Assembly: GCF_003018255.1 (NCBI RefSeq)
Contig: NZ_CP027440.1
Origin: Escherichia coli
GTDB taxonomy: Bacteria > Pseudomonadota > Gammaproteobacteria > Enterobacterales > Enterobacteriaceae
DNA length: 64,000 nt
Strand: one strand, 5' to 3'
A program made the position numbers and the translations under genes. This document shows positions 57,900 to 59,977 of this stretch, one piece after another. Positions within the stretch are counted from its first letter, which is position 1. Each line of letters starts with the position of its first letter. Under the pieces are notes generated by a model. That model was not told where the DNA came from, searched no databases, and worked only from the letters and a program-made list of their open reading frames with translations.

Positions 57900-59681
57900 G
57901 TGAGCGATATTGTTTACCTGAGAATAATCGGTGAGAAGCAGGGCTATATTTCTTCAGGCTGTGGGACGTATGCGTCGGTTGGTAATTGCTGGCAGGTTGG
58001 CCATGAAGATGAAATTTTTGCCTTTGCACTCACCAACGCCATTACCAGTACTGGTAAAGGCGTTAATCTACAGGGGCTACAATTTTGCAAACTCATTGAT
58101 AAAAGCTCACCGCTACTGTCTAATGCCATCAATCAGAATGAGCGGTTATTTATTGAAATCGATTTGTATCGTATAAATAAAAGCGGGCGCTGGGAACGGT
58201 ATTATTATATTCAGCTAAGAAATGCTTCATTAACTGCTATTCATGTAAACATTTCTGACAATAATCTTCCTACCGAATGTATAACTGTCGATTATGACTA
58301 CATATTATGTAAACATCTAATAGTCAATACGGAATTTGACTGGTTGGCCTTTCCTGCTGGCTATAATAGCTTATTTATTCCGCCTAAAAGCCCACCTGCC
58401 AGTAATCTTAAGCCTGAACCTCTACCAGTTGTTAACCTTCCACTCTCTTCACCAGCGGTTAACCCGGTCTATGCAAAATCCTGTCTGAAGGAGAAGGGAT
58501 GTACAGATGCTGGAACGGCAGAAGAACCCGCTGAAAACTTCGGTCAAGTAGCGATTTTTGCTCAGCCAGTGGTTGATGACTGCTGTGGATACCACCATCC
58601 CGAGGCTAACGATGTCGGGCAACCCGCAGAAGCTCAAACCATGCTACTGTTTCCGGGTAGTGTGTTGGCGGCTCAAATATGGGGAAAATGGTCGCTCAGT
58701 GGCATACTCAGTGCAACCCGCGGCTCTTACATCGGTGCGTTGGCATCTGCTTTGTATATTCCCTCTGCGGGCGAGGGCAGTGCTCGCGTGCCCGGACGTG
58801 ATGAGTTCTGGTATGAGGAAGAACTGCGGCAGAAAGCACTAGCAGGCAGTACCGCCACCACCCGGGTACGTTTTTTCTGGGGAACTGACATTCACGGCAA
58901 GCCTCAGGTGTATGGTGTTCATACGGGTGAAGGTACGCCGTATGAAAACGTCCGCGTGGCGAACATGCAGTGGAACGAGCAGACGCAGCGTTATGAATTT
59001 ACCCCCGCTCACGATGTCGATGGCCCCCTGATTACCTGGACGCCGGAAAATCCGGAACATGGGAATGTTCCGGGCCATACCGGTAACGACAGGCCGCCGC
59101 TGGATCAGCCCACCATTCTGGTGACGCCGATTCCGGACGGCACCGATACCTATACCACGCCGCCATTCCCGGTTCCTGATCCGAAAGAATTCAACGATTA
59201 TATTCTGGTTTTTCCGGCGGGATCCGGTATTAAGCCCATCTATGTTTACCTGAAGGAGGATCTGCGAAAGCTGCCTGGTGTTGTAACAGGGCGCGGCGTC
59301 CCGCTTTCACCAGGAACTCGCTGGCTGGATATGTCGGTATCCAATAACGGCAACGGCGCACCAATCCCGGCGCATATTGCTGATAAATTGCGCGGACGGG
59401 AGTTTAAAACCTTTGATGAGTTTCGCGAGGCGCTGTGGCTGGAGGTGAGTAAAGACTCAGTGTTATTGGCGCAGTTTATAAAAAGTAATCAGAATAACGT
59501 TAGTCAAGGATATTCCCCCTATGTCCCTGAGGAGGGGTATTATTACGGACCAAATGAGATAGTTAAGAAATTCCAGATACATCATGTAGTTGCTATAGAA
59601 CATGGTGGTGGAGTGTATGATATTGATAATTTTAGGATTGTTACGCCCCGACTACATGATGAAATTCACTACAGGAGATAA
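57900..59681 (+). CDS. Hcp-family (T6SS tube) protein with C-terminal extension ending in a colicin E-type HNH DNase domain (Hcp-ET-like effector)
   Basis: GTG start with aagga SD. Residues 1-160 look Hcp-like (MSDIVYLRIIGEKQGYISSG...HEDEIFAFAL...LIDKSSPLL...RYYYIQLRNASLTAIH). Proline-rich linker at 161-190. The C-terminus aligns, from memory, with the colicin E9 DNase domain (GAPIPAHIADKLRGREFKTFDEFREALWLEVSKD ... KKFQIHHVVAIEHGGGVYDIDNFRIVTPRLHDEIHYRR carries the HNH motif). AT-rich island absent from the K-12 arrangement. Confidence 0.8.
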   Translation: MSDIVYLRIIGEKQGYISSGCGTYASVGNCWQVGHEDEIFAFALTNAITSTGKGVNLQGLQFCKLIDKSSPLLSNAINQNERLFIEIDLYRINKSGRWERYYYIQLRNASLTAIHVNISDNNLPTECITVDYDYILCKHLIVNTEFDWLAFPAGYNSLFIPPKSPPASNLKPEPLPVVNLPLSSPAVNPVYAKSCLKEKGCTDAGTAEEPAENFGQVAIFAQPVVDDCCGYHHPEANDVGQPAEAQTMLLFPGSVLAAQIWGKWSLSGILSATRGSYIGALASALYIPSAGEGSARVPGRDEFWYEEELRQKALAGSTATTRVRFFWGTDIHGKPQVYGVHTGEGTPYENVRVANMQWNEQTQRYEFTPAHDVDGPLITWTPENPEHGNVPGHTGNDRPPLDQPTILVTPIPDGTDTYTTPPFPVPDPKEFNDYILVFPAGSGIKPIYVYLKEDLRKLPGVVTGRGVPLSPGTRWLDMSVSNNGNGAPIPAHIADKLRGREFKTFDEFREALWLEVSKDSVLLAQFIKSNQNNVSQGYSPYVPEEGYYYGPNEIVKKFQIHHVVAIEHGGGVYDIDNFRIVTPRLHDEIHYRR

Positions 59682-59977
59682 TGTATATGCGTGATTTAAA
59701 AGATAAAATATATTTTTACACAGAAGGTGAATTTCTTGAAATGCTTGAGGAGATAGTAAATGCAACTAGCAAAGATAAATCCCTAAAAGGGAAAAAATTA
59801 GAAAAATATCTCGATACCTTAGTGGATCATTTCATTAAAATTACTGAACATCCTAAAAAGGGAGATCTCATTTTCTATCCTAATTCCCAAGAAGATGGTG
59901 AACCTGAAAACATCCTGAAAATCGTCAAAGAATGGCGGCGTTCACAGGGGCTACCCTTGTTTAAAGACTCTAAATAA
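59681..59977 (+). CDS. Colicin/pyocin DNase immunity protein (Im7/Im9 family), cognate to the upstream toxin
   Basis: ATG overlaps the toxin stop (taATG). 98 aa with YTEGEFLEMLEEI...VDHFIKITEHPKKGDLIFYPNSQEDGEPENILKIVKEWRRSQGLPLFK, resembling Im9 (YTEAEFLQLV...[20 protein letters not shown]...) as recalled. Confidence 0.85.
   Translation: MYMRDLKDKIYFYTEGEFLEMLEEIVNATSKDKSLKGKKLEKYLDTLVDHFIKITEHPKKGDLIFYPNSQEDGEPENILKIVKEWRRSQGLPLFKDSK

What the first reader, a model, noticed from the sequence alone, without database searches (positions are those of the whole stretch)
57900..59977. Hcp fused to a colicin E-type HNH DNase, with a translationally coupled Im-like immunity gene
The 593-aa ORF combines three parts. 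Residues 1-160 resemble T6SS Hcp tube proteins. Residues 200-455 form a GC-rich middle domain. Residues 455-593 align, from memory of the colicin E9 sequence, with its DNase domain: GAPIP.RIADKLR..EF..FD.FR.A.W.EVSKD and the HNH core HH...GG.VYD.DN.R..TP..H..IH. The next ORF overlaps the stop (taATG) and has the Im7/Im9 hallmark TEHP..(S)DLI(F/Y)YP. Hcp proteins with C-terminal toxin extensions have been reported in Enterobacteriaceae, so this is most likely a T6SS-delivered antibacterial DNase rather than a colicin. It is the only clearly accessory, conflict-related system in the window.
Basis: partly seen in the sequence, partly recalled or inferred. Interest (0 to 1): 0.85.

Follow-up and report, generated by a model that had tools for sequence, protein, structure and literature searches.

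The report
E. coli Usp toxin island, rediscovered

Summary
ORF 57900-59681 (593 aa) has a T6SS Hcp/TssD domain (residues 1-145), a Pyocin_S inner-membrane-translocation domain (309-450) and a full colicin/pyocin HNH DNase domain (460-591). All four E9-type catalytic residues are present. A colicin/pyocin immunity gene follows directly.

The interpretation, a T6SS-delivered antibacterial DNase rather than a colicin, is supported. However, this locus is PAIusp, the ~4-kb island between aroP and pdhR that carries usp and imu1-3 (orfU1-3). It was described in 2000 and renamed Hcp-ET3-4 in 2017.

- The protein is 93% identical to the UTI89 protein at the same aroP-pdhR site.
- The gene is present once, on the chromosome, in 1058 of 5426 complete E. 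coli genomes.

Three corrections:
- The immunity gene more likely starts at ATG 59687 than at the overlapping ATG 59681.
- The "middle domain" is the IMT domain.
Each is a truncated DNase 3' end plus an immunity gene.

The array is the uspI-orfU1-orfU2-orfU3 arrangement. Novelty: already known. Interest: low.

The parts
57375..57899 (.). aroP-usp intergenic region (31% GC). It holds the aroP promoters and the divergent P3 promoter reported to drive usp; the -10 hexamer TGGTAT lies at 57513-57518.
   Evidence: Sequence read directly; GC. Rihtar et al. 2020 (PMC7142922) identify aroP P3 (-10 TGGTAT), activated by TyrR and repressed by H-NS, as the usp promoter. The consensus promoter scan was no better than shuffles.
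57900..59681 (+). usp (uspI allele; = hcp-ET3-4), 593 aa: Hcp-IMT-HNH DNase fusion toxin
   Evidence: ORF; domains; 93% identical to the UTI89 protein at the same site; PGAP annotates it as tssD.
57900..58334 (+). Hcp/TssD tube-protein domain (residues 1-145), 39% GC
   Evidence: TIGR03344 120.6 bits against a cut-off of 58.9; Pfam T6SS_HCP 5e-13; PDB Hcp 6A2V 3e-14, 3HE1, 5MXN.
58824..59249 (+). Pyocin_S / inner-membrane-translocation (IMT) domain (residues 309-450), 56% GC
   Evidence: PF06958 3e-40; 3MFB 1e-17. The function of the domain comes from PMC9040868, which names Usp as an example.
59277..59672 (+). Colicin/pyocin HNH DNase domain (residues 460-591); catalytic H561, H562, N577, H586, H590
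   Evidence: PF21431 6e-43 over the full model length; ColE9 DNase 3e-33 with the motif aligned. H314A/H315A and H339A (346-aa numbering, = H561/H562, H586) abolish nuclease activity and toxicity (PMC3685522).
59436..59450 (+). 15-nt anchor TGGCTGGAGGTGAGT (W-L-E-V-S, residues 513-517). It marks the boundary between the conserved gene body and the polymorphic immunity-specificity segment, and recurs at 60127 and 60817.
   Evidence: Exactly three copies in the window and three in UTI89. GC falls from 56% to 38% here. Window/UTI89 protein divergence starts at residue 518.
59687..59977 (+). imu1 / orfU1 immunity gene (96 aa; 98 aa if started at the overlapping ATG 59681)
   Evidence: PF01320 3e-28; Im7, ImAP41 and Im9 hits; start-codon argument. 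OrfU1 forms a tight inhibitory complex with UspI (PMC3685522).
60127..60372 (+). Orphan 3' fragment of a uspII-type DNase (ORF 60136-60372, 78 aa). The HNH motif is intact, but there is no delivery domain and no N-terminal half of the nuclease.
   Evidence: 97% DNA identity to the 3' end of the active UTI89 usp; alignment; PGAP names it 'HNH endonuclease signature motif containing protein'.
60375..60668 (+). imu2 / orfU2 immunity gene (97 aa), cognate to uspII-type toxins
   Evidence: Alignments; 97% DNA identity to the UTI89 first immunity gene. The uspII-orfU2 linkage is stated in PMC3685522.
60817..61065 (+). Second orphan DNase 3' fragment (ORF 60826-61065), decayed. HH is replaced by YH, and a 1-nt deletion after DIDNLR puts TPHLHDEIYYRR out of frame.
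   Evidence: Sequence read directly; alignment; 98% identical to the UTI89 second fragment.
61066..61356 (+). imu3 / orfU3 immunity gene (96 aa)
   Evidence: Alignments; PGAP names it 'bacteriocin immunity protein'. Imu3 was studied in PMC3917654.
60002..60034 (+). 13-bp stem hairpin after imu1; equivalents at 60684-60716 (after imu2) and 61379-61415 (after imu3, followed by UUUUCG)
   Evidence: strand folding gives -17.6, -17.7 and -15.8 kcal/mol, z -5.5, -5.1 and -3.4.

Best explanation
The locus is PAIusp, the small horizontally acquired island between aroP and pdhR found mainly in phylogroup-B2 E. coli. It encodes Usp (= Hcp-ET3-4) and the immunity proteins Imu1-3 (OrfU1-3).

**What is shown**
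- The C-terminal domain is an active, non-specific HNH DNase that kills the producer unless immunity protein is co-expressed.
- The first immunity protein binds it tightly.

**Supported by one published study, seen here only through reviews**
- The Hcp domain lets the protein be fired by a T6SS encoded elsewhere in the genome. The toxin then inhibits neighbouring bacteria that lack the immunity genes.

**Inferred**
- One Usp subunit probably joins five ordinary Hcp subunits in a ring.
- After injection into the prey periplasm, the Pyocin_S/IMT domain carries the nuclease across the inner membrane, possibly with FtsH-dependent processing as for nuclease colicins and pyocin G.
- The DNase then degrades the chromosome.

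**Specificity and expression**
- Specificity between toxin and immunity lies in residues 518-575, the polymorphic low-GC segment.
- The two downstream modules are remnants of other toxin alleles kept with intact immunity genes. The cell is therefore protected against all three allele classes carried by usp-positive strains.
For: - **Domain architecture:**
- **Location:** the flanking genes are aroP and pdhR. PAIusp is defined as lying between aroP and pdhR in all usp+ genomes (PMC7142922).
- **Match to the published description:** a 593-aa protein whose internal Met248 gives the originally reported 346-aa Usp, followed by small ORFs of 98, 97 and 96 aa, exactly as published (against PMC3685522).
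- **Identity to UTI89:** 93% identical to the UTI89 protein at the same site. UTI89_C0121 is listed as Hcp-ET3-4, 'followed by three duplications of the immunity gene', with antibacterial activity (PMC6730261).
- **Nuclease and toxicity:** nuclease activity, the HNH mutants, toxicity and rescue are in PMC3685522.
- **IMT domain:** its function is described in PMC9040868, which names Usp as a T6SS nuclease effector.
- **One Hcp-ET per ring:** PMC13323088.
- **T6SS present:** the tssA-M, hcp and vgrG genes of a T6SS cluster lie at aspV in a genome that is 100% identical over 57400-61800.
- **Distribution:** 1058 of 5426 complete E. coli genomes carry it, always single-copy and chromosomal.
- **Polymorphism:** confined to residues 518 onward.
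Against: - I could not read the primary T6SS-dependence paper (Ma et al. 2017), only reviews of it.
- The review reports Hcp-ET3 and Hcp-ET4 killing experiments in ETEC strains as well as UTI89. How directly T6SS-dependent delivery was shown for this exact protein is therefore unclear to me.
- In the 100%-identical genome, one T6SS-cluster gene (VasL-domain protein) is annotated as frameshifted.
- A separate line of work reports Usp as a genotoxin for mammalian cells. It also reports that Imu3 protects by binding DNA rather than by binding Usp (PMC3917654), which does not fit a simple colicin-style immunity model for all three Imu proteins.
- The IMT/FtsH step is untested for any T6SS effector.
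Confidence: 0.88

Rival explanations
1. Usp acts mainly as a virulence genotoxin against host (mammalian) cells in the urinary tract, not as an interbacterial weapon. The Imu proteins only protect the producer.
For: The literature associates usp with pyelonephritis, prostatitis and bacteraemia isolates. It reports genotoxic activity of Usp on mammalian cells and induction by urea and 37 C (PMC3917654; PMC7142922). A T6SS could in principle also deliver it to eukaryotic cells.
Against: - The architecture is that of antibacterial nuclease effectors: an IMT domain that occurs only with toxins that must cross a bacterial inner membrane.
- The toxin/immunity specificity region is polymorphic.
- The locus keeps immunity genes against alleles the strain does not itself produce. 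These features make sense only if other bacteria fire such toxins at the cell.
- The association with UPEC may simply reflect phylogroup B2 ancestry.
Confidence: 0.2
2. It is a diffusible colicin/S-pyocin-like bacteriocin released from the cell and taken up through an outer-membrane receptor, independent of any T6SS (the Parret and De Mot 2002 proposal).
For: The C-terminal two-thirds has the same organisation as S-type pyocins and klebicin G: an IMT domain followed by a DNase domain. The immunity protein is of the colicin type.
Against: - The N-terminus is an Hcp domain above the curated TssD cut-off, not a receptor-binding or Tol/Ton-box region.
- There is no lysis gene in the island.
- There is no LexA box anywhere between 55357 and 63788.
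- The locus is chromosomal in all 1058 genomes.
- Published regulation is by TyrR/H-NS, not SOS.
Confidence: 0.05
3. The gene is a decaying remnant with no current function in this strain, either an orphan effector without a working T6SS or silenced by H-NS.
For: The locus lies far from any T6SS cluster. One gene in the aspV T6SS cluster of the identical-locus genome is frameshifted. E. coli P3 promoter activity is reported as low and H-NS-repressed. The two downstream toxin fragments are clearly remnants.
Against: - The 593-codon ORF is intact here and is at least 97% identical over its first 1.5 kb (57900-59400) in all but one of the 1058 genomes; that one matches only 72% of the query.
- All catalytic residues are preserved.
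- The cognate immunity gene is intact.
- Recombinant protein of this allele class (uspI) is an active nuclease.
Confidence: 0.07

Closest known systems
Usp / PAIusp (uropathogenic-specific protein with OrfU1-3 = Imu1-3), type uspI-orfU1-orfU2-orfU3
   Same: - Same insertion site (aroP-pdhR).
- Same 593-aa protein, with Met248 giving the originally reported 346-aa form.
- Same three small ORFs of 98, 97 and 96 aa.
- Same low-GC mosaic composition.
- The uspI toxin allele is linked to orfU1 directly downstream.
- The 98-aa ORF sequence is held exactly in public records, including AAN78630.1 and UniProt Q8VV25.
   Different: Nothing of substance; it is an allele of the described island. Assigning it to 'subtype Ia' rests on my memory of Nakano et al. 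2001, which I could not read.
Hcp-ET3-4 of UPEC UTI89 (UTI89_C0121; Ma et al. 2017)
   Same: Orthologous gene at the same site, 93% identical, with identical domain order and three downstream immunity genes.
   Different: - The immunity-specificity segment (residues 518-575) is a different allele (uspI here, uspII in UTI89).
- The module order is changed. UTI89's active CT/immunity pair is the first orphan module here, at 97% identity.
- The window's active CT segment has no close copy in UTI89; the best match is 73%.
Colicin E9/E7/E2 and S-type pyocins (S2, AP41, S8), klebicin G
   Same: An HNH DNase domain with identical catalytic motif. An IMT/Pyocin_S domain directly upstream. An Im-type four-helix immunity protein encoded directly downstream.
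   Different: There is no receptor-binding or Tol/Ton translocation region; an Hcp domain takes its place. The locus is chromosomal rather than plasmid-borne, and has no SOS box or lysis gene.
VPA1263 (Vibrio parahaemolyticus MIX-type T6SS DNase effector)
   Same: Residues 199-590 match the NCBIfam model for this effector (E 4e-63). The whole cargo half, meaning the pre-IMT region, the IMT domain and the DNase, is therefore shared.
   Different: The score (214 bits) is far below the model's cut-off of 900. The N-terminal delivery module differs: MIX in VPA1263 (from knowledge of Jana et al. 2019), Hcp here.
Orphan CT/immunity arrays of Rhs and CdiA loci
   Same: A full-length toxin gene is followed by tandem modules, each a 5'-truncated toxin 3' end plus an intact immunity gene, headed by a short conserved sequence.
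   Different: The shared upstream homology is only 15 nt. One fragment is decayed. Switching by recombination has not been shown for this locus.

Membership tests
Usp / PAIusp | Island inserted in the aroP-pdhR intergenic region | tested here: met
   aroP at 56001-57374 (-) and pdhR from about 61.8 kb (+) flank the locus. The definition is from PMC7142922.
Usp / PAIusp | usp gene encoding an Hcp - Pyocin_S - colicin-nuclease protein (593 aa; formerly annotated as 346 aa) | tested here: met
   Met248 gives 346 aa, and H314/H315 map to H561/H562.
Usp / PAIusp | Two or three downstream orfU/imu immunity genes (98, 97, 96 aa) | tested here: met
   ORFs of 98, 97 and 96 aa at 59681, 60375 and 61066. 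The first matches PF01320. The other two align with it throughout (57-66% identity) and are annotated 'bacteriocin immunity protein'.
Usp / PAIusp | High sequence identity to a reference PAIusp (UTI89, NC_007946) | tested here: met
   93% protein identity. The first 1.5 kb of the gene is 97-100% identical across 1058 genomes that include UTI89-like strains.
T6SS Hcp-fused ('specialised Hcp', Hcp-ET) effectors | N-terminal Hcp/TssD domain | tested here: met
   TIGR03344 120.6 bits against a cut-off of 58.9, residues 1-145. Solved Hcp structures match at E 3e-14 to 2e-6.
T6SS Hcp-fused ('specialised Hcp', Hcp-ET) effectors | C-terminal extension of more than 60 aa carrying a toxin domain, with a cognate immunity gene downstream | tested here: met
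   A 448-aa extension containing the IMT and HNH DNase domains, with an immunity gene 5 nt downstream. The >60-aa criterion is from PMC8262886.
T6SS Hcp-fused ('specialised Hcp', Hcp-ET) effectors | A T6SS apparatus encoded in the same genome | tested here: met
   None lies in the 64-kb window. The genome that is 100% identical over 57400-61800 has tssA, B, C, E, F, G, H, J, K and M, a tssL-type gene (annotated icmH/DotU), hcp and vgrG at aspV. One accessory VasL-domain gene is frameshifted.
T6SS Hcp-fused ('specialised Hcp', Hcp-ET) effectors | T6SS-dependent secretion and contact-dependent, immunity-neutralised killing | not testable with these tools
   Reported for Hcp-ET proteins, including Hcp-ET3-4, by Ma et al. 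2017. I saw this only through reviews; the primary paper is not held.
Colicin/pyocin HNH DNase domain (PF21431) | Full-length domain match with HNH catalytic residues (E9 H102, H103, N118, H127, H131) | tested here: met
   Model positions 1-124 of 124, E 6e-43. All five residues are conserved in the E9 alignment.
Colicin (plasmid-borne, SOS-induced, released bacteriocin) | Receptor-binding and Tol/Ton-dependent translocation domains; LexA-regulated operon with a lysis gene; plasmid location | tested here: not met
   The N-terminus is Hcp. There is no LexA box near the locus and no lysis ORF. The locus is chromosomal in all 1058 genomes and on a plasmid in none.
Colicin/pyocin immunity proteins (PF01320) | ~85-95-aa helical protein matching the family model, encoded directly 3' of the nuclease | tested here: met
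   E 3e-28 over model positions 2-82 of 82. Im7, Im8, Im9, ImS2 and ImAP41 structures match at E 1e-20 to 1e-13.

The most novel reading that the evidence does not exclude
The tandem ~690-nt modules behave like Rhs/CdiA orphan arrays. Each consists of the 15-nt anchor, a variable DNase 3' end, an immunity gene and a hairpin spacer.

- usp alleles may be swapped by recombination at the anchor, which coincides with the 56%-to-38% GC break.
- All three usp+ arrays examined here (the window, UTI89 and one ST131 strain) keep immunity genes of all three Imu classes. If that holds generally, the weapon would discriminate only against usp-negative E. coli.
- About half of usp+ complete genomes, including ST131, form a third class at 93% identity to the UTI89 type. 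The one example examined (ST131 MB1159) carries a third toxin allele paired with an orfU2-like immunity gene, plus a four-immunity-gene array. This does not fit the published two-type, 'two or three orfU' scheme.

I found no paper that describes the truncated toxin fragments or this logic. However, I could not read Nakano 2001, Parret and De Mot 2002 or Ma 2017.
Probability: 0.35. Interest if true: 0.3.

Novelty: already known. Interest (0 to 1): 0.12.

Why it matters
It matters little as a discovery. usp has been a standard UPEC/ExPEC marker gene since 2000, and its Hcp-IMT-DNase architecture, nuclease activity, immunity genes, regulation and T6SS link are published.

Two loose ends remain of real interest to the field.
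- How an Hcp subunit carrying a ~48-kDa extension is loaded and fired.
- Whether the IMT domain and FtsH carry a T6SS-delivered nuclease across the prey inner membrane. Neither point has been tested for any T6SS effector.

This locus is a convenient natural model for both questions, since it is present in about a fifth of complete E. coli genomes, including ST131. The allele and orphan-module structure also gives a simple typing scheme for who can kill whom among B2 strains.

Tried and rejected
- **Ma et al. 2017 (Virulence):** I tried to read it by DOI and by PMC id. It is not held, so the T6SS-dependence evidence is second-hand.
- **Consensus promoter/terminator scan of 57350-61800:** it found no more sites than shuffles and is not used as evidence. 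The P3 -10 hexamer was located by reading the sequence against the published hexamer.
- **LexA-box search:** matches occur at chance frequency in the window and none lies near the locus. The SOS/colicin-operon idea was rejected.
- **Simple cyclic permutation of whole modules between UTI89 (A, B, C) and the window (C, A, B):** I first suspected this from the immunity proteins. DNA comparison shows it holds for the immunity genes and for two toxin fragments. It fails for the window's active toxin segment, which has no close copy in UTI89 (best 73%). The simple model was dropped.
- **Structure prediction and the large protein-database homology searches:** not run. Curated HMM cut-offs, PDB sequence hits and the literature already settle the identity, and the cost was not justified.
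Full report
**1. What is in the sequence**

The window is an E. coli chromosomal segment (hofB/gspE, ppdD, nadC, ampD, ampE, aroP, then pdhR, aceE). Between aroP (56001-57374, minus strand) and pdhR lies a ~4.4-kb low-GC insert.

Its first gene, 57900-59681 (+), encodes 593 aa. The domain evidence is:
- Pfam finds T6SS_HCP (residues 28-139, E 5e-13), Pyocin_S PF06958 (309-450, E 3e-40) and Col-Pyo_DNase PF21431 (460-591, model 1-124 of 124, E 6e-43).
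- The curated NCBIfam TssD model TIGR03344 scores 120.6 bits on residues 1-145, against a cut-off of 58.9.
- Residues 199-590 match the model for the Vibrio T6SS DNase effector VPA1263 (E 4e-63, far below that model's exception-level cut-off).
- Against solved structures, the C-terminus matches colicin E9, E2 and E7, pyocins AP41, S8 and S2, and klebicin G (E 6e-42 to 5e-24). Residues 307-452 match 3MFB. The N-terminus matches Hcp structures.
- H561, H562, N577, H586 and H590 sit on the E9 HNH residues in the printed alignment.

The next gene matches the colicin/pyocin immunity family (PF01320, E 3e-28; Im7, ImAP41 and Im9 structures).

**2. Corrections to the observation**

- *Immunity start codon.* An ATG does overlap the stop (TAA 59679-59681, ATG 59681-59683). 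However, the AGGAGA Shine-Dalgarno sequence at 59673-59678 is 2 nt from that ATG and 8 nt from the ATG at 59687. PGAP uses the latter. Only that Met is invariant across six paralogues and orthologues.
- *The middle region.* The 'GC-rich middle' is real, at 55% against 39% for the Hcp part. Its core is the Pyocin_S domain. High GC continues through the conserved half of the DNase domain and drops to 38% exactly at residue 518.
- *Extent of the system.* It does not end at 59977. Two further modules follow:
  - A 78-codon 3' fragment of a DNase with an intact HNH motif (60136-60372) plus an immunity gene (60375-60668).
  - A decayed fragment (60826-61065; HH replaced by YH, plus a 1-nt deletion that frameshifts the last HNH histidines) plus an immunity gene (61066-61356).
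- *Other repeated features.* Each immunity gene is followed by a 13-bp hairpin. Each module is headed by the same 15-mer, TGGCTGGAGGTGAGT, found three times here and three times in UTI89.

**3. What it is**

The 4.4-kb region is 100% identical in three complete E. coli genomes and 98.6-98.7% identical in many others, including NC101, NGF1 and M-17. The conserved 1.5 kb of the gene is present once, always on the chromosome, in 1058 of 5426 complete genomes. These include UTI89-like strains, S88, ABU 83972 and ST131.

UTI89 has the same gene at the same place, 93% identical at the protein level. A review lists UTI89_C0121 as 'Hcp-ET3-4'. It describes an Hcp fused to Pyocin S3 and colicin DNase domains, followed by three immunity-gene duplications, with antibacterial activity (PMC6730261).

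The same locus is the much older 'uropathogenic-specific protein' island, PAIusp:
- It is a ~4-kb island, always between aroP and pdhR, encoding usp and imu1-3. Usp carries Hcp, S-type pyocin and colicin nuclease domains (PMC7142922).
- Usp was first reported as 346 aa, with downstream orfU1-3 of 98, 97 and 96 aa (PMC3685522).
- Here the three small ORFs are exactly 98, 97 and 96 aa. Met248 of the 593-aa ORF gives 346 aa.
- The published mutants H314A/H315A and H339A therefore correspond to H561A/H562A and H586A. They lost nuclease activity and toxicity.

**4. How it most likely works**

*Shown in the literature:*
- HNH-dependent DNase activity, self-toxicity, and protection by immunity proteins.
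[quoted passage not shown] The P3 -10 hexamer TGGTAT is at 57513-57518.
- Antibacterial activity of Hcp-ET3-4, and T6SS-dependent delivery shown for Hcp-ET family members (second-hand).

*Shown here:*
- The cargo half has the same IMT-plus-DNase organisation as nuclease bacteriocins.
- A T6SS gene cluster with all the core tss genes lies ~118 kb away at aspV in the genome identical over 57400-61800. One VasL-domain gene in that cluster is frameshifted.

*Inferred:*
- One Usp subunit completes a ring with five ordinary Hcp subunits, because only one extension fits (PMC13323088).
- After injection, the IMT domain takes the nuclease across the prey inner membrane, perhaps with FtsH. This was demonstrated for pyocin G and explicitly proposed, but not tested, for T6SS effectors, with Usp named as an example (PMC9040868).

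*Against a classical colicin:* the Hcp N-terminus, no lysis gene, no LexA box between 55357 and 63788, and chromosomal location.

*The mammalian-genotoxin role:* the claim, and the report that Imu3 binds DNA rather than Usp, remain a partly competing account. The polymorphic specificity segment and the retained non-cognate immunity genes argue that interbacterial conflict is the selective force.

**5. Allele and module structure (beyond the finding)**

- Window and UTI89 proteins differ almost only in residues 518-575. This segment aligns with the part of the E9 DNase that forms the immunity-binding exosite (established knowledge, not tested here).
- DNA comparison of modules:
  - UTI89's active toxin end plus immunity gene corresponds to the window's first orphan module (97% and 97%).
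  - The second orphan module is shared (98% and 93%).
  - The window's imu1 corresponds to UTI89's third immunity gene (95%).
  - The window's active toxin segment has no close copy in UTI89 (best 73%).
- This fits the published statement that uspI is linked to orfU1 and uspII to orfU2, with four island subtypes.
- Junction-specific searches split the 1058 genomes into 263 window-type, 245 UTI89-type and 550 of a third class that is 93% identical to the UTI89 type.
- An ST131 example of the third class has a third toxin allele, an orfU2-like immunity gene, and four immunity genes with three toxin fragments.
- I found no description of the truncated toxin fragments or of this third class in the papers I could read, but key early papers were not available.

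**6. Verdict**

The object is an already known, named and experimentally characterised system (Usp/Imu1-3, also called Hcp-ET3-4) that is common in B2 E. coli.

- Novelty: already known.
- Interest: low (0.12).
- The only modestly new material is the orphan-module and allele bookkeeping. The open mechanistic questions, Hcp-ET loading and IMT-mediated entry, are already recognised in the field.

Noticed in passing
window 60127-61356: There are two tandem ~690-nt modules downstream of the reported pair. Each has the 15-mer TGGCTGGAGGTGAGT, a 5'-truncated DNase 3' end, an intact immunity gene and a hairpin spacer. The first fragment keeps an intact HNH motif. The second has HH replaced by YH and a 1-nt frameshift.
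   Followed up: yes
window 59436-59450 (also 60127, 60817); L002 7937, 8628, 9325: The 15-nt anchor coincides with an abrupt GC drop (56% to 38%) inside the DNase domain and with the start of allelic divergence. This suggests a recombination boundary between the conserved gene body and exchangeable specificity cassettes.
   Followed up: partly
L004 (E. coli ST131 MB1159, NZ_CP174273.1) 2701-6864: The ST131-type array has four immunity genes and three toxin fragments. Its active DNase specificity segment differs from both the window and UTI89, yet it is paired with an orfU2-like immunity gene. About 550 of 1058 usp+ complete genomes fall in this 93%-identity class.
   Followed up: partly
L003 (NZ_CP116067.1 4560140-4583586): A T6SS cluster at aspV, with all the core tss genes, two hcp genes, vgrG and disrupted Rhs elements, lies in the genome identical over 57400-61800. 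The VasL-domain gene is annotated as frameshifted, so T6SS function in that strain is uncertain.
   Followed up: no
window 60002-60034, 60684-60716, 61379-61415: Conserved 13-bp stem hairpins (-16 to -18 kcal/mol, z -3.4 to -5.5) follow each immunity gene. Only the last is followed by a U-run. They may be transcript-stabilising or attenuating elements within the usp-imu operon.
   Followed up: partly
window 57890-57898: A three-codon mini-ORF (ATG AAA TAA) sits between the AAGGA motif (57878-57882) and the annotated GTG start of usp at 57900. The real translation start and ribosome-binding site of usp are not obvious from the sequence.
   Followed up: no
window 58380-58823 (residues 161-308): A proline-rich linker (residues ~160-190) is followed by a ~110-residue region with no Pfam hit, containing a Cys-rich stretch (DDCCGYHH). 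It is nevertheless homologous to the pre-IMT region of the Vibrio effector VPA1263 (NCBIfam match starts at residue 199). Its function is unknown.
   Followed up: no
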